From Bdellovibrionales bacterium (lineage in GTDB: Bacteria > Bdellovibrionota > Bdellovibrionia > Bdellovibrionales > JAGQZY01), in the NCBI GenBank assembly GCA_965218815.1, contig CBDCLX010000002.1:217074-281073 (forward strand): a stretch of 64,000 bases of DNA, given 5' to 3'. How positions within the stretch are numbered: the first letter of the stretch is position 1; every line of letters begins with the position of its first letter. The notes beneath the pieces were generated by a model. It made no database searches, was not told the DNA's origin, and saw only the letters and a list, made by a program, of their open reading frames with translations. Position numbers and translations under genes: made by a program. This document shows positions 6,572-15,462 of this stretch, piece after piece.

Positions 6572-9500
6572 TTGTCTCAATCTGATAAAACCATTATAAG
6601 TCCTATAGCCATTGACCTTGGTGCCAAAAACACAGGCGTTTACTTTGCCCATTATAAAGCTGGCAGTCCTCTGAAAGAGATAGAAAAAGAGGGCAAAGTC
6701 TATCAGCTTGAAAAAAACAAATACACCTTATTAATGGTAAACAGAACGGCAAAACGCCATCAGAGACGTGGCTTTGACCGCAGACAGATGGCCAAGCGGC
6801 TTTTCAAACTGATCTGGGAAAAGCACTTTGGATTTAAGTGGGATAAGGACGTACAGCAAACCATTAGTTTTCTAATGAACCGCCGGGGTTTTACTTTCCT
6901 GACGGAGCAATATGATACTGAAATACTGAGTCGGTTCCCAAAAGAAGTCCATGATCTTTTACCAGACGAAATAAAGAAAAAAGTTCAAGAATACGAAGAA
7001 AACGATGCCTATAATTTTGATAGTGCCCTGAAAGATTGGGCCAAAAAAGACGAAGTAAAATCCATACTTAAGGCACTCAAGATAAGAGAAAACAGTGAGG
7101 AAACGGAACTGAAAAAATTAATTTTGGATTTTAAGACAGAAAGTTTTAAACTCGAAAATAAAAATTTCAAAACTCCAGAGCAACCTGAAGAAAATGCTCA
7201 AAATGAAGAAAAAAAGGATTATAAAAAAGATGTTTTTAAATGGAAACAACTTCACCTTCAACATCTTGTCTTTGCAATTTATAAAACCCATGACGAACTT
7301 GAATCAGGTGGTCGTCATCGTAGTAAATATTTTAAGGAAGTTGAGGATGTGTTAAACTGTGATAATCATAATCATGGCTATTTAAGGAGATTTTGTAAAA
7401 AACTTGACTCACAAAACTTCAACTTTAAGGGTTCTATCATTGAAGTGAAAACATTATCTCACTTAATCAGCCATATTAGCAATCTTGAACTGAAACCTTT
7501 ACGAAAATATTTTAATGATGAAAAACACAAAAAAGATGATTACTGGCATGAAAATCGCTTAAGGAAGATATTTGAACGCTGGATATTACATCAGTGGCGG
7601 GTGGATCCAGAAAAAAATAAAGACAAAGCCGAAGATAAAGATGGAGATTATAGAAAACTTTGTGAAGATTGGAAGAGCCACGAAGGTGAACTTGTAGATT
7701 TTTGGCTGAAAACAAATCCACTTTTTACTATTCCTCCCTACCAGAATAATAACAACCGACGACCTCCCAAGTGCCAGAGTCTCATCCTGAATGTTAAATT
7801 TTTAAACAGAATTTATCCTAAATGGCGGGATTGGTTGGAGGAGTTAAAAAAACTGGACTCAATCAAATTCTACCTTGGATTGATTGAAAATCAGGAATTA
7901 TTACAAAAGGAAGAAGAACAAAAAACCAATACAACAAAAAAGGATCAATACTACAAGTATGAAAAAGAACTCAAAGAACCTAAAAGTGGTAAAGGTAAGT
8001 CTTACTTTAATGATGAGGAAGATAGTTCTCTAAAAAGCAAAAACAAACGACGAACCAACTTTAGTCAGAGAGATCAAACAGATCTTGAAACCCGTACTCT
8101 TCAGTTTATTTTTGATCGAGTCAAGGACAATGACCTACTTAAACTCAATGAGATATACAGCCATGCAAAAAAAATCAAACAATTAAAGAGAGACTGGAAA
8201 GTTTCTCAACAATTTGCACAAATTTATGATGAGGATACAAGAAAAGCAAAAGAAGAACTGGATAAAGTCAGAACAACACTTGAAGAAACTCTTGAAGAAA
8301 GTAAATTGTCAGAGAATTTAAAAATAGGATATAATTTTAACAATGATGGTCTTTTTCCCGACGGCTCATTTCTCCATTTGATCTGCAAATATTATAAATT
8401 AAGAAAAAGAGCCAAAGAGGGTCGACTGTTTATTCATCCAGAGTACAGATACAAAGGTAAGAGTCGTGGTTACGAAAATACAGGACGTTTTGATGATAAA
8501 AACCATTTGCTCACTTATTGCAATCACAAACCAAGACAAAAGCGTTATCAAATGTTTTGGGATTTAGCGGGTTTGTTTCAGGTTTCATCTAAAACACTAA
8601 AAGAATTTATTGAAGAAAAAGATGGAAATACAACAGATGAGAAATTATTTAACTGGTTGAAAGACTTCAATGGTTTAAAAAGCAATTGTGAAAAAGCAGC
8701 AAAAGAACAAAAAGACCGTCGAGGCAGTTTAAAATCAGATATTCAAAGTGTTTTTAATTTGATTTCTTATAAAAAGAAAAGGTCATCCCATGACAAAGAA
8801 CTTAAAGACTCAGAAATCAAAATAATTTTAGAAAATTCAAAAGTGAAAGAGGCTTTTAAACTTTATAAGTTCTGCAACAAAGCTAAAAGATTAGCCCTAC
8901 AGATTACAGAAAATTTATATGATAGTTGTTCAAGACAGAAAAAGTGGAAGGAGAGTTTAGATAAAAACCCAGCCACTGCTGTGTTCTTCCTTGCTCAGAT
9001 CAATAATCTTGTTTTTAAAGAACGTAATGGCAATGCTAAGACTTGTCCTGTGTGCAGTGCTGATAATGCCCACCGTATGCAACAAGATGAGAAAGAAACC
9101 AGCACAAAAGCCCAACGTCTTTCTGCTATCAGTACACGTATTATTGACGGAGCGGTTATGAAAATGGCAAGGATTGTGAGTGGAGCTATTGCCAATGATA
9201 AATGGGAAAAAATTAAAGGGGAACTGGGAAAAGGTAACAAGGTTTGTATTCCCATTATCACGGAATCCAACCGTTTTGAATTTGAACCAAATTTGAAAGA
9301 TCTGAAAGGAAAAAAGAGCAATAGAAATGATAAGACATCAGAAAATATTTTTTCTGAGAAAAAAGACCGCATCAGACAGGCTGGCAATGGCATTTCTCCT
9401 TATTCAGGAGATCCAGTGGGAGATCAAGGAGACCTGGATCACATTATCCCCAGATCCCACAGAATATGGGGAACACTTAATGATGAGGCAAACCTTATTT

Positions 9501-11650
9501 TTACTAGTCAAAGAGATAACCGTACAGAAAAAGGAAACAACGAATATTCTTTGGAAAACTTGAATGCAAAATATAAAAGAGAACAATTTGAAACTGATGA
9601 TAAGGAAAAAATTCAGGAATGGATTATTGACCAAATTGGTGATGGCACAGATGAGGATTTTAAATTTGGAAAATACAGAAGTTTTATCAATTTAACACAA
9701 GATCAGAAAAAGGCCTTCCGTCATGCTCTTTTTTTGGATGGTCATTCTTTACGTAAAAAAGTCATCAAGGCCATTAACAATCGAACCAGGGCACTGGTTA
9801 ATGGAACCCAACGCTATTTTGCTGAAGCATTGGCAAATACTCTCTACAAAAAAGCCAAATTTATAAAAAAGGAAACCTTATTATCTTTTGATTATTTTGG
9901 TGTTGAAGCACAAGACAATTCACGGGGTGATGGAATCTATAATTTGCGTAAGGAACTTGTGGAATATTATAAACCTGATTTAAAAAGATACAATAAAACA
10001 TCAGAAGAATCTCAGGACTTATATTCACATCTCATAGACGCACAAGTAGCTTTTTGTATGGTTGCAGATGCTCACCGAAAAGAAGGAAGTTTAAAGCTCT
10101 GCCTGACTGATGATGAGGGACTTTGGTCTTGTGTTGACAGGGAGACAGGGGAGATTGTTCCCGAAAAAAATAAAATTTATGATGAAAGATTGTTTAATTT
10201 TATCCAAATAGACAGAAATTCCTTTAAAAAAGAATCTCTAATTCGTAAAAAGCCAAAGCCTAAAAAGAAGAATATTTCCTATCGCCCCTTATTTAATGAG
10301 AATGCTGTTGCCATGCACTTTTTAAAATTAATTCAAATTGATTTTAAAAAACAAAAACAATTCCTCTATCTACAGGGATTTCTTTCCTTGAATGATTTGA
10401 AAGAATGTCTTGAAGATATAGATGATGAGAATATGAATCAATCTCTAAAAGAATATGAAAAATACGCAAAAAGGATTCCAGATAACATCCTGGAAAACAC
10501 AAGAAACCTTTATCTTGATAGATTTAAGACTGTCAAAGAACAAAAAACAGGGATAACTGTGATTGAGGGTTTTGGCAGACAAAAGGCTGACATAAGAATT
10601 TACAGTTTGAATAAAACAACAGTCTATAATTTTTTGATAGAAAAATTTAATTCAAAAAAATCTTTTTTGCCAGATGAAGAAGATTTATCAATTTTAAAAA
10701 TTTTAGAAAAATCCTGGTATTTTACCAAGAAAGAAAACGTACTGAAAAAAAATAAGACAAAAGAAGAAGAGTTTAATAAACAAAACGTAAATAAATTTAA
10801 ATATGCAGGTTTTATCAATCCACAATTGGAATATGAATGGAAAAATCTTGAAAACAGTATCAATGAAAATAATACAGGTAAGACAATATATGAAAAAGTT
10901 GAGAATCATTTTTTGCATAAGAAAGAAAAAGATACAGGAGAATTCGTAAAAAAACATGATCACGAGCATCAAAAAGTAAGAAAAGTCTTTTCCCTGCCCA
11001 TAAGGAGTCAAAAAGGGTTCTTAATTAAAAAGAAAAACTGGAAAAATGAAGATGTTTTTTATTGTCGCCCTGCCAGTAATGATTTTTCACAGACAGTCTT
11101 ACACAAGAATCCATCTGGAAACATACCAGATACAAATAAAGATGAAAGACTGTCTAATATATACAGAAAAAGTAATATTTTTTATATTGCAGATATAACG
11201 AAATTAGAAAAGCAGTTAGAGTCTATAGATTCTGATCTGGCAATTGATCCAAACAAATATTACAATGCTGAAATTTCAGAAAAATTTAAAGATTATATGA
11301 ATAAAATTAAAAACAAAAGAACTGAAGAATCCAGATCCCAATTTAGATTTTATTTAACTTCAAAAAATAAAATGGATTTTGAAACATTTAAGGAATTTAT
11401 CTCATCTTATCCGTTTAGAACATTACAGGATCTAAAGGCTAAATACAGGGAACAGTATATTGATTCTTTACAAAATGAAGAAGATATAGAAGAAAAGATA
11501 AATGAAATTGAACAGATGGAAAATAAACCAAAAAATCTTTTACCCACACTGAAGCAGTTTCATCAGTTCTGGAGAGGTTCGCAGAAAGAAGAAATGTTAG
11601 AATATTCAGCCAAACACAATTTTACTCTTTCTGCCTCTGATGGAAGATAA
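6572..11650 (+). CDS. cas9: Type II-B CRISPR nuclease Cas9 (FnCas9-like), 1692 aa
   Basis: RuvC-I PIAIDLGAKNTGV, Arg-rich bridge helix NRTAKRHQRRGFDRRQ, Zn-site motifs PPKCQS / YCNH / TCPVC, RuvC-II IITESN, HNH DLDHIIPRSH...DEANL...DN...KGN, RuvC-III YSHLIDA. Long blocks are collinear with Francisella novicida Cas9 as I recall it. TTG start with AAGGA SD. Confidence 0.97.
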   Translation: MSQSDKTIISPIAIDLGAKNTGVYFAHYKAGSPLKEIEKEGKVYQLEKNKYTLLMVNRTAKRHQRRGFDRRQMAKRLFKLIWEKHFGFKWDKDVQQTISFLMNRRGFTFLTEQYDTEILSRFPKEVHDLLPDEIKKKVQEYEENDAYNFDSALKDWAKKDEVKSILKALKIRENSEETELKKLILDFKTESFKLENKNFKTPEQPEENAQNEEKKDYKKDVFKWKQLHLQHLVFAIYKTHDELESGGRHRSKYFKEVEDVLNCDNHNHGYLRRFCKKLDSQNFNFKGSIIEVKTLSHLISHISNLELKPLRKYFNDEKHKKDDYWHENRLRKIFERWILHQWRVDPEKNKDKAEDKDGDYRKLCEDWKSHEGELVDFWLKTNPLFTIPPYQNNNNRRPPKCQSLILNVKFLNRIYPKWRDWLEELKKLDSIKFYLGLIENQELLQKEEEQKTNTTKKDQYYKYEKELKEPKSGKGKSYFNDEEDSSLKSKNKRRTNFSQRDQTDLETRTLQFIFDRVKDNDLLKLNEIYSHAKKIKQLKRDWKVSQQFAQIYDEDTRKAKEELDKVRTTLEETLEESKLSENLKIGYNFNNDGLFPDGSFLHLICKYYKLRKRAKEGRLFIHPEYRYKGKSRGYENTGRFDDKNHLLTYCNHKPRQKRYQMFWDLAGLFQVSSKTLKEFIEEKDGNTTDEKLFNWLKDFNGLKSNCEKAAKEQKDRRGSLKSDIQSVFNLISYKKKRSSHDKELKDSEIKIILENSKVKEAFKLYKFCNKAKRLALQITENLYDSCSRQKKWKESLDKNPATAVFFLAQINNLVFKERNGNAKTCPVCSADNAHRMQQDEKETSTKAQRLSAISTRIIDGAVMKMARIVSGAIANDKWEKIKGELGKGNKVCIPIITESNRFEFEPNLKDLKGKKSNRNDKTSENIFSEKKDRIRQAGNGISPYSGDPVGDQGDLDHIIPRSHRIWGTLNDEANLIFTSQRDNRTEKGNNEYSLENLNAKYKREQFETDDKEKIQEWIIDQIGDGTDEDFKFGKYRSFINLTQDQKKAFRHALFLDGHSLRKKVIKAINNRTRALVNGTQRYFAEALANTLYKKAKFIKKETLLSFDYFGVEAQDNSRGDGIYNLRKELVEYYKPDLKRYNKTSEESQDLYSHLIDAQVAFCMVADAHRKEGSLKLCLTDDEGLWSCVDRETGEIVPEKNKIYDERLFNFIQIDRNSFKKESLIRKKPKPKKKNISYRPLFNENAVAMHFLKLIQIDFKKQKQFLYLQGFLSLNDLKECLEDIDDENMNQSLKEYEKYAKRIPDNILENTRNLYLDRFKTVKEQKTGITVIEGFGRQKADIRIYSLNKTTVYNFLIEKFNSKKSFLPDEEDLSILKILEKSWYFTKKENVLKKNKTKEEEFNKQNVNKFKYAGFINPQLEYEWKNLENSINENNTGKTIYEKVENHFLHKKEKDTGEFVKKHDHEHQKVRKVFSLPIRSQKGFLIKKKNWKNEDVFYCRPASNDFSQTVLHKNPSGNIPDTNKDERLSNIYRKSNIFYIADITKLEKQLESIDSDLAIDPNKYYNAEISEKFKDYMNKIKNKRTEESRSQFRFYLTSKNKMDFETFKEFISSYPFRTLQDLKAKYREQYIDSLQNEEDIEEKINEIEQMENKPKNLLPTLKQFHQFWRGSQKEEMLEYSAKHNFTLSASDGR

Positions 11651-13982: not shown

Positions 13983-14018
13983 GTACAAAAAAACCGCATA
14001 AATGCGGTCTTTTTGTAC
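13983..14018. terminator. Bidirectional intrinsic terminator (cas4 on +, tracrRNA on -)
   Basis: gtacaaaaaaaccgcat-aa-atgcggtctttttgtac: a GC stem with A and T tracts on both sides. Confidence 0.8.
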
Positions 14019-14110
14019 TCTCTAAAAGAGAGTCAGACGTGATAATCAGAGGTCCGTTCATAATACTTTTTGATGATTACAGGTCATCAATAATGGGTTA
14101 TACTGAACTA
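13988..14110 (-). ncRNA. tracrRNA
   Basis: The minus-strand 5' part ucaguauaacccauuau (14090-14106) is a perfect 17-nt complement of the crRNA repeat. The following cuguaaucaucaaaaaguauuaugaacggaccucugauuaucacgucug closely resembles the F. novicida tracrRNA scaffold as I recall it. It ends in the terminator hairpin. Confidence 0.9.
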
Positions 14111-14141: not shown

Positions 14142-14254
14142 TATTTTTCAACTTTTTTCGCAAAAAATGCCATGTTTTTAACAATCAGCAAACTTGCGAA
14201 AAAATATTTTCAAAGCCTCCTGCAATTACCTGATTTAACAGGATAATTGCAGGA

Positions 14255-14941
14255 CTTCCATCAGTATAACCCATTATCCAGACACTGAAACTCGGTTTTA
14301 TTTCGCAGACTTGCCGAGATTGAAGAACTTCCATCAGTATAACCCATTATCCAGACACTGAAACATGGCTAAACTTAGTTGTATGTTAATAAAACGTACC
14401 TTCCATCAGTATAACCCATTATCCAGACACTGAAACTTGTTTTGGGGAAAAACTGCTTATGCACGGAAATTACTTCCATCAGTATAACCCATTATCCAGA
14501 CACTGAAACAACAAAAGACAGATTTCCATTATTTCAAACTTATACTTCCATCAGTATAACCCATTATCCAGACACTGAAACTATGTTAATTGTCAAACAC
14601 TCAGAAAACCCTCCCACTTCCATCAGTATAACCCATTATCCAGACACTGAAACCATATTTCTGTGTCAGCTAAAGTTTTAGCCAATCTTCCATCAGTATA
14701 ACCCATTATCCAGACACTGAAACAGCAAAAGACAGATTTCCATGGTTTCAAACTTATAAACTTCCATCAGTATAACCCATTATCCAGACACTGAAACTTT
14801 AGCACATTTGCTTGAAAAAAAAGATTATTTCACTTCCATCAGTATAACCCATTATCCAGACACTGAAACAGCTCCATTTGTTCGCTTGTAGACAATCCTT
14901 CCACCTTCCATCAGTATAACCCATTATCCAGACACTGAAAC
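14255..14941 (-). CRISPR. Type II-B CRISPR array: 10 identical 37-nt repeats, 9 spacers of 33-37 nt
   Basis: Repeat GTTTCAGTGTCTGGATAATGGGTTATACTGATGGAAG (minus strand) starts on + at 14255, 14328, 14400, 14473, 14545, 14617, 14687, 14761, 14833 and 14905. The GTTTCAG start resembles the Francisella II-B repeat. Orientation is inferred from tracrRNA pairing. Confidence 0.98.
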
Positions 14942-15462
14942 TACCTGGTGCTGTTCGAAAAAACAATGTGCCTTTTCTTCCATCTCATCGTTAGGGGACA
15001 GAGGGTTTTCCCTTATTTTTTCAAGACTCTTTGTTTTGAAGGATATTTCCACGGAATCCCGGTCTGTTGCATCAGGATTAACAATATTAAAACTGATCTT
15101 CCTAAGAGGACCCTGATCATTTGCATCTCTAACATAAATGACTGTAGTCTCGTTGTCAGGGGAATTTGTAATTCTCATTTTAACCTTGTTCTCACTCTCA
15201 AATTTACGTTTTTGACCGAGTGGCGGATTAGGCGTAAAAAAAGAAATTAAACAATCAAAATACTTTACAGATCTAGTATTCTCTGCCGCTATTGATCGTG
15301 TTTCCTGGTTATAATATCTGACCTTTGGACTTTTGGATCCTTGGGTGAACTGCTGAAATGTAAGGTTATTTTTAGATGGCATTGAAGAGCAGGCTCCAAG
15401 GATCGAAACCAGAATTAAAGAGACAAATGAAAAGCCACTGTTTTTACAAATCCAGTGGTCAT
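14924..15462 (-). CDS. Putative lipoprotein whose 3' end reads into the CRISPR array (probable 1-nt frameshift near 15418)
   Basis: Lipobox ILGAC. ATG at 15462 gives MTTGFVKTVAFHLSL, which joins ILVSILGAC with one indel. The stop TAA lies inside repeat 10. Confidence 0.55.

What the first reader, a model, noticed from the sequence alone, without database searches (positions are those of the whole stretch)
14510..14760. Spacers 4 and 7 target two variants of the same protospacer, with a seed-region difference
Seen: S4 aacaaaagacagatttccattatttcaaacttata and S7 agcaaaagacagatttccatggtttcaaacttataaa differ at 3 of 35 positions. They are flush at the end that is PAM-proximal given the crRNA orientation, and one difference is 2 nt from that end. 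Both reverse complements read as one peptide frame (YKFE[I/T]MEICLL). Inference: this records phage escape and re-acquisition at the same PAM, or two related phages.
Basis: partly seen in the sequence, partly recalled or inferred. Interest (0 to 1): 0.55.

Follow-up and report, generated by a model that had tools for sequence, protein, structure and literature searches.

The report
Two variant spacers, one viral site
Two of the ten memory units in this bacterium's Cas9 (type II-B) CRISPR array are independent captures of the same invader site in two sequence versions; this pattern is real but already known, and the invader itself could not be found.

Summary
S4 (14510-14544, 35 nt) and S7 (14724-14760, 37 nt) differ at positions 2, 21 and 22 and start at the same base. 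S7 runs 2 nt further at the far end.

The locus is a complete type II-B system: Csx12-type Cas9, Cas1, Cas2, Cas4, and a Francisella-like tracrRNA on the minus strand. crRNAs are therefore minus-sense, and the shared (GAAAC-side) end is the PAM-proximal end.

No target was found for either spacer, or for any spacer of the array, in any collection searched. The PAM and the escape story therefore stay untested for this pair.

A survey of 68 related II-B arrays (1663 spacers) shows the pattern recurs. There are 19 variant pairs. All 12 with unequal lengths are flush at the GAAAC end, and their differences are 3-periodic, as expected for wobble sites. The 56 perfect duplicates all have equal length, as expected for in-array duplication.

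One analogous pair maps to a single CCT-flanked site in a microvirus capsid gene.

Repeat decay and a conserved leader place new spacers next to cas4, so S4 is probably newer than S7.

The scan has noted the same pattern in at least seven other genomes. It is ordinary and of low interest.

The parts
6572..11650 (+). cas9 (Csx12 type, 1692 aa), the type II-B effector
   Evidence: TIGR03031 cas_csx12 at 622 bits (cut-off 399) and PF21069 at 382 bits
12146..13102 (+). cas1
   Evidence: TIGR00287 at 215 bits and PF01867
13103..13402 (+). cas2
   Evidence: TIGR01573 and PF09827
13242..13970 (+). cas4 (ORF limits; the true start is probably later)
   Evidence: TIGR00372 at 88 bits, PF01930 and PF12705
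13987..14108 (-). tracrRNA, with a 17-nt perfect anti-repeat at 14090-14106
   Evidence: Rfam RF02747 FtrA matched over its full length, 51.5 bits, E 3.9e-6, below the gathering score. Its duplex with the minus-sense repeat is -34.2 kcal/mol.
14194..14254 (+). Leader-like flank: a TTGCGAAAAAA motif (14194-14204) and a palindrome (14219-14253) that abuts repeat 1
   Evidence: The motif, at the same distance, and a palindrome or G-run next to repeat 1 recur in most of the 29 closest loci
14255..14941 (-). CRISPR array of 10 identical 37-nt repeats and 9 spacers; crRNA sense is the minus strand
14510..14544 (-). Spacer S4 (35 nt), probably the newer of the pair
   Evidence: polarity
14724..14760 (-). 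Spacer S7 (37 nt), probably the older of the pair
   Evidence: polarity
14942..14984 (-). Tenth spacer (14942-14976) followed by an 8-nt remnant of a decayed terminal repeat (14977-14984)
   Evidence: similar truncated remnants follow the last repeat in L068, L073 and L083

Best explanation
S4 and S7 are two separate integrations by the Cas1-Cas2(-Cas4) module of a type II-B system. Both were cut from the same PAM-anchored site of an unidentified mobile element, which existed in two sequence versions. The adaptation machinery measures from the PAM, so both spacers start at the same base; the far end is trimmed less exactly, giving 35 and 37 nt. New spacers probably enter at the cas4-proximal end, so S7 was probably taken first and S4 three integrations later. 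The two versions most likely came from co-circulating, diverged relatives of one element, not from a one-step escape mutant. In guide terms, the only difference sure to lie inside the Cas9 guide is position 2 from the PAM. The S7 guide would meet the S4-type target with an rC:dA mismatch. The S4 guide would meet the S7-type target with an rU:dG wobble. Each spacer therefore covers a version that the other covers less well. Shown: the sequences, the locus type, the crRNA sense and the family-wide behaviour. Inferred: polarity, order of acquisition, the origin of the two versions and the functional effect.
For: The pair exists and is far beyond chance. The locus is type II-B, with a minus-strand tracrRNA and minus-sense crRNA. 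This agrees with RNA-seq of F. novicida in PMC3737331, where the array is transcribed opposite to the cas operon.

In 68 related II-B arrays there are 19 variant pairs. All 12 pairs of unequal length are flush at the GAAAC end; aligning them at the other end gives 20-29 mismatches. All 56 perfect duplicates have equal length, against 12 of 19 variant pairs with unequal length (Fisher P 2e-9). So variant pairs are independent captures and perfect duplicates are in-array copies.

The differences within variant pairs are 3-periodic: 65 of 91 fall in the dominant phase, against 49.4 +/- 2.7 expected. This points to synonymous divergence between related targets.

There is a direct analogue. L090 S3 and S12 map to one site in the capsid gene of a gokushovirus-like contig, with a CCT flank; the virus version differs from both spacers at wobble and other sites. 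15 of 20 spacer matches on that contig have CCN on the GAAAC side.

Polarity: mutated repeats sit at the cas-distal end in 20 arrays and at the cas-proximal end in 1. Only the cas-proximal flank is conserved.
Against: No target was found for S4, S7 or any other spacer of this array, so neither the PAM nor the two versions have been seen in an invader. The three differences (positions 2, 21, 22) show no 3-periodicity, and two of them are adjacent, unlike most family examples. Polarity rests on comparative inference, not on sister-strain arrays or experiment, and no spacer is shared between any two arrays. For FnCas9, single mismatches at positions 2-11 slow cleavage but do not abolish it (PMC11213958), so the two spacers may be partly redundant.
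Confidence: 0.5

Rival explanations
1. Escape and recapture within one invader lineage. The element was first targeted by S7, then gained changes that include the seed change at position 2, and the same PAM-anchored site was later captured again as S4.
For: One difference lies 2 nt from the PAM end. 14 of 15 variant families in related arrays have a variable site in PAM-proximal positions 1-10, and variable sites are over-represented there (32/12/33 for positions 1-10, 11-20 and 21-33; P 0.011). No perfect re-acquisition with a different length was seen among 56 perfect pairs, as expected if a working spacer makes recapture pointless. There is a precedent in Legionella type I-C arrays against LME-1, where the older spacer is mismatched in the seed or PAM and the newer one is perfect (PMC5071653).
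Against: One seed change would be enough for escape, yet there are three differences, including an adjacent double change at positions 21-22. The family pattern is dominated by wobble-site divergence. No target is available to show which version is extant. The position bins come from few families that are partly from the same arrays.
Confidence: 0.28
2. The two versions are paralogous copies of a repeated gene or domain within one invader, so both spacers came from a single element.
For: Nothing direct. The hypothesis is compatible with the same flush start and with non-periodic differences.
Against: No target has been found. In the one resolved analogue, L090 S3/S12 on the microvirus contig, there is a single site in the genome.
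Confidence: 0.1
3. In-array duplication of one spacer unit, followed by point mutations and a 2-nt change at the spacer-repeat junction.
For: Perfect duplications are common in related arrays: 56 pairs in 18 arrays. An earlier follow-up on another genome reported that some differences within such a pair arose inside the array (e1-5245622; not checked here).
Against: The neighbouring units S5, S6 and S8 are not duplicated. The lengths differ by 2 nt at the PAM-distal end. All ten repeats (370 nt) are identical, while the spacers differ at 3 of 35 positions. Perfect duplicates never differ in length, whereas 12 of 19 variant pairs do.
Confidence: 0.08
4. Assembly artefact: a single spacer was mis-assembled into two.
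For: None found.
Against: Both spacers lie in one contig of a two-contig, 3.05-Mb assembly. They have different neighbours, regular spacing and different lengths.
Confidence: 0.02

Closest known systems
Paired older and newer spacers against overlapping LME-1 protospacers in Legionella pneumophila type I-C arrays (Rao et al. 2016, PMC5071653)
   Same: One array holds two spacers for one invader site, and they differ in the seed region. The authors read this as a record of invader variation or escape followed by a new capture.
   Different: That system is type I-C with priming. Its target is known, and its older and newer spacers were ordered using strain comparisons. Here the system is type II-B, the target is unknown, both spacers start at exactly the same base, and the order is only inferred.
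Type II-B CRISPR-Cas of Francisella novicida U112 and Legionella pneumophila
   Same: The Cas9 is of Csx12 type and is followed by cas1-cas2-cas4. The tracrRNA lies between cas4 and the array. The array is transcribed against the cas operon, and the repeat begins GUUUCAG in crRNA sense. The PAM used for Legionella II-B is CCN, 5' of the protospacer. The same motif was recovered here for symbiont II-B arrays.
   Different: The repeat sequence differs. The host is a MAG-like 3.05-Mb genome at 41% GC, which another first-reader note tentatively places near Bdellovibrionota. The PAM of this particular Cas9 is untested.
L090 S3/S12 variant pair (Bathymodiolus endosymbiont II-B array), which targets a gokushovirus capsid gene
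   Same: The two spacers are flush at the GAAAC end, measure 34 and 35 nt, and differ at 4 sites.
   Different: A relative of the target was found: one site flanked by CCT, with the differences at wobble positions. For S4/S7 no target was found, and the differences are not periodic.

Membership tests
Type II-B CRISPR-Cas | Cas9 of the Csx12 subfamily | tested here: met
   TIGR03031 at 622 bits against a cut-off of 399; PF21069 at 382 bits
Type II-B CRISPR-Cas | Adaptation genes cas1, cas2 and cas4 downstream of cas9 | tested here: met
   TIGR00287, TIGR01573 and TIGR00372, all above their cut-offs
Type II-B CRISPR-Cas | A tracrRNA with an anti-repeat complementary to the crRNA repeat | tested here: met
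   Full-length match to Rfam FtrA, the Francisella sRNA at the Cas9 locus, at E 3.9e-6 but below the gathering score. A 17-nt perfect anti-repeat; duplex energy -34.2 against -11.6 kcal/mol for the wrong sense.
Type II-B CRISPR-Cas | NGG-type PAM 3' of the protospacer in crRNA sense (CCN next to the GAAAC end) | not testable with these tools
   No target was found for any spacer of this array. CCN was seen for 15 of 20 matches of related symbiont arrays and for one microvirus match.
Escape-and-recapture spacer pairs (as for Legionella LME-1) | The older spacer is mismatched to the extant target in the seed or PAM, and the newer spacer matches it | not testable with these tools
   The target is unknown
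Independent re-acquisition of one PAM-anchored protospacer | Same PAM-proximal boundary, a variable PAM-distal boundary, and neighbouring units not co-duplicated | tested here: met
   S4 and S7 are flush at the GAAAC end and measure 35 and 37 nt; S5, S6 and S8 are unrelated. The same behaviour is seen in all 12 unequal-length variant pairs in relatives.

The most novel reading that the evidence does not exclude
Type II-B adaptation has such strong protospacer hot-spots that the same PAM-anchored site is captured repeatedly from diverged viruses. Arrays would keep a second version only when the first guide fails. Natural variant pairs would then give an in vivo read-out of which guide positions matter for these Cas9s: variable sites are enriched in positions 1-10 and depleted in positions 11-20. 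The codon-phase bias (the N of the PAM at the wobble site, CC/GG at codon positions 1-2) would reveal the PAM without any target.
Probability: 0.15. Interest if true: 0.45.

Novelty: new member of a known kind. Interest (0 to 1): 0.2.

Why it matters
Taken alone, the pair is one more natural record that a CRISPR array can track two versions of one invader site. It adds little, because the invader is unknown. The modest added value lies in the family survey. In type II-B arrays, variant pairs can be told apart from in-array duplications by length, they mark the PAM-proximal end, and their codon phase agrees with an NGG-type PAM. These are practical rules for reading arrays whose targets are not in any database.

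Tried and rejected
**Target searches, all negative or chance.**
- Own genome: pattern search with up to 3 mismatches, and blastn-short of all 10 spacers.
- IMG/VR: a pattern with N at the variable sites, a wobble-N pattern that covers both phase-0 frames, and 24-mers of S1, S2, S5 and S9.
- Phage records: each spacer and the whole array; the best hits had E of 1 or more.
- Plasmids.
- Metagenome contigs: a 22-base pattern gave nothing. The shared 18-mer gave 45 loci whose flanks match at chance level.
- 185,579-species genome collection.
- 383 genomes of the same order, with up to 3 mismatches.

**Comparative array dating failed.** The repeat is absent from 40 relatives, and no spacer is shared between any two of the 68 related arrays.

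**The peptide-frame argument is rejected as evidence.** Four of the six frames are open in both spacers.

**Selection by FnCas9-like mismatch sensitivity is not supported.** FnCas9 tolerates single mismatches least at position 1 and positions 15-19, whereas variable sites in the variant pairs are depleted in positions 11-20.

Full report
**What is there.** The region 14255-14941 holds ten identical 37-nt repeats (+ strand CTTCCATC...CTGAAAC) with nine spacers of 33-37 nt. A tenth spacer (14942-14976) is followed by an 8-nt remnant of a decayed repeat. S4 (14510-14544, 35 nt) and S7 (14724-14760, 37 nt) are identical except at + strand positions 2, 21 and 22. They start at the same base, and S7 has two more bases at the other end. 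No other pair in the array is alike. The chance probability for such a pair is about 1e-11.

**Which system.** Upstream on the + strand lie four cas genes:
- a 1692-aa Cas9 of the Csx12 type (TIGR03031, 622 bits against a cut-off of 399);
- cas1;
- cas2;
- cas4.

This is the type II-B gene set. Between cas4 and the array, on the minus strand, Rfam finds a full-length match to FtrA, the Francisella small RNA at the Cas9 locus (13987-14101, E 3.9e-6, below the gathering score). It carries a 17-nt perfect anti-repeat at 14090-14106. The minus-sense repeat pairs with this RNA at -34.2 kcal/mol, and the plus-sense repeat at only -11.6. crRNAs are therefore minus-sense and read spacer then GUUUCAG. 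RNA-seq of F. novicida likewise showed the array transcribed opposite to the cas operon (PMC3737331). In a type II system the PAM follows the 3' end of the guide, so the end of each spacer that touches ...GAAAC on the + strand is PAM-proximal.

**Target searches.** Neither spacer, nor any other spacer of the array, has a credible match in any collection searched:
- the own genome;
- 50,697 phage records;
- 72,556 plasmids;
- IMG/VR;
- JGI metagenome contigs;
- the 185,579-species genome collection;
- 383 genomes of the same order.

The 45 metagenome hits to the shared 18-mer match at chance level outside the 18-mer. The PAM of this Cas9, the identity of the invader, and the choice between escape and two related invaders therefore cannot be tested directly.

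**Comparative survey.** Cas1 relatives gave 78 loci, mostly sponge and mussel symbiont MAGs, Bdellovibrionales, Sutterella, Succinatimonas and HTCC5015. Of these, 68 carry an array directly downstream of cas4, with the same sense and a 37-nt repeat ending in CTGAAAC (a few end in CTGAAAT); together they hold 1663 spacers with a modal length of 35.

Two kinds of repeated spacer occur in these arrays.
- Perfect duplicates: 56 pairs in 18 arrays, usually as blocks, and always of equal length.
- Variant pairs with 1-8 differences: 19 pairs in 8 arrays, this one included.

Twelve of the 19 variant pairs differ in length. All twelve are flush at the GAAAC end; aligning them at the other end gives 20-29 mismatches. 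The contrast in length behaviour is strong (Fisher P 2e-9). Perfect duplicates are in-array copies, and variant pairs are independent captures measured from the PAM. S4/S7 (35 and 37 nt, flush, neighbours unrelated) belongs to the second kind.

**What the variants are.** Differences within variant pairs are 3-periodic: 65 of 91 fall in the dominant phase, against 49.4 +/- 2.7 for random positions. The targets are therefore mostly coding, and the versions differ mainly at wobble sites. That is what diverged relatives look like, not single-step escape mutants.

One analogue could be resolved. The pair L090 S3/S12, from a Bathymodiolus endosymbiont, maps to a single site in the capsid gene of a 4.9-kb gokushovirus-like IMG/VR contig that encodes Phage_F, a Chlamydia-phage scaffold protein and Rep. 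The site is flanked by CCT, and the virus version differs from both spacers at wobble and other sites. Twenty spacers from three related arrays match this contig, and 15 of them have CCN next to the GAAAC-side end. One further spacer matches a blackfly microvirus capsid gene with a CCC flank. This agrees with the CCN PAM used for Legionella II-B (PMC5071653).

In 15 independent variant families the dominant wobble phase is 0 (positions 3, 6, 9 and so on) in 10 of 13 (P 0.0016). That phase puts the N of the PAM at a wobble site and CC/GG at codon positions 1-2, which is the arrangement most likely to keep a PAM intact between diverged relatives.

The S4/S7 differences (positions 2, 21, 22) are not periodic, so this pair is not a clean example of the synonymous class.

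**Is there a seed signal?** Fourteen of the 15 families have a variable site in positions 1-10. Variable sites number 32, 12 and 33 in positions 1-10, 11-20 and 21-33 (P 0.011). No perfect re-acquisition with a different length was seen. Both points fit the idea that a second version is kept only when the first guide fails, and they keep the escape reading alive. The sample is small and partly non-independent. The dip at positions 11-20 also does not match the reported FnCas9 profile, where tolerance is lowest at position 1 and positions 15-19 and mismatches at positions 2-11 only slow cleavage (PMC11213958).

For S4/S7, the difference certain to lie in the guide is position 2. The S7 guide on the S4-type target gives rC:dA, and the S4 guide on the S7-type target gives rU:dG. 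That the wobble is the better tolerated of the two is an inference from general Cas9 knowledge and was not tested.

**Order of acquisition.** Mutated or truncated repeats lie at the cas-distal end in 20 related arrays and at the cas-proximal end in one. Truncated repeat remnants one spacer length beyond the last repeat, as here, recur in L068, L073 and L083. The cas-proximal flank is conserved in most of the closest loci: a TTTGCGAAAA motif about 60 nt upstream, and a palindrome or G-run abutting repeat 1. The cas-distal flank is not conserved. New spacers therefore probably enter next to cas4, at the transcription-distal end. Chylinski et al. noted the same conflict between repeat decay and transcription direction for type II-C arrays. 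On this reading S7 is older and S4 newer, with S6 and S5 acquired in between. This remains an inference, because no sister array or shared spacer was available.

**Comparison with what is known, and verdict.** Arrays that hold two versions of one protospacer, read as a record of invader variation or escape, are already described; one example is Legionella type I-C against LME-1 (PMC5071653). Earlier notes of this scan report the same pattern in at least seven other genomes. This is a genuine but ordinary instance in a type II-B array.

My estimates are:

| Reading | Probability |
|---|---|
| Independent capture from two diverged relatives | about 0.5 |
| Escape and recapture within one lineage | about 0.28 |
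| Paralogous copies within one element | about 0.1 |
| In-array duplication plus mutation | about 0.08 |
| Assembly artefact | about 0.02 |

Interest is low (0.2).

Noticed in passing
G000:C2:2439753-2439945 (outside the window): An orphan, decayed mini-array with three repeat-like copies (13, 5 and 16 mismatches to the repeat as scored without gaps; the first copy also has a 1-nt insertion) and two spacer-length gaps, far from the cas locus.
   Followed up: partly
G000:C2:310598-310634 (about 29.5 kb beyond the window end): A solo repeat copy (4 mismatches) about 40 nt from a sequence that looks like a tRNA gene. It may be the scar of an earlier position of the locus or of an integrated element.
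   Followed up: no
window 14194-14254, and the same flank in L056-L084, L129 and L131: A conserved leader-like architecture in this II-B clade: a TTTGCGAAAA motif about 60 nt upstream of repeat 1, and a palindrome or G-run abutting repeat 1. The repeat sequences themselves differ between loci.
   Followed up: partly
L090:7625-11300 and L135:1-4934: The II-B array of a Bathymodiolus endosymbiont holds at least 14 spacers against one gokushovirus-like microvirus. Eight of them are among its first 12 spacers, on both strands, and most have a CCN flank.
   Followed up: partly
L057, spacers S5 and S10: A variant pair in opposite orientation (32 of 35 identical after reverse complement, offset 1). 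The same site was captured from both strands of two target versions.
   Followed up: no
L120:10044-13321; also L067, L059 and L073: Large block duplications inside II-B arrays, for example a block of 14 spacers repeated in the same order (S2-S7 as S19-S24, S9-S16 as S27 and S29-S35) in the Turicimonas muris locus.
   Followed up: no
15 variant-protospacer families in L056-L100 and the window: Variable sites are depleted in guide positions 11-20 (12 sites, against 32 in positions 1-10 and 33 in positions 21-33; P 0.011). This is unexplained and rests on few families.
   Followed up: partly
L088, spacers S12 and S13: Adjacent spacers overlap perfectly with a 4-nt offset. The implied flank of S13 is TCG, not CCN, so the PAM is relaxed (NGA-like) or the acquisition slipped.
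   Followed up: no
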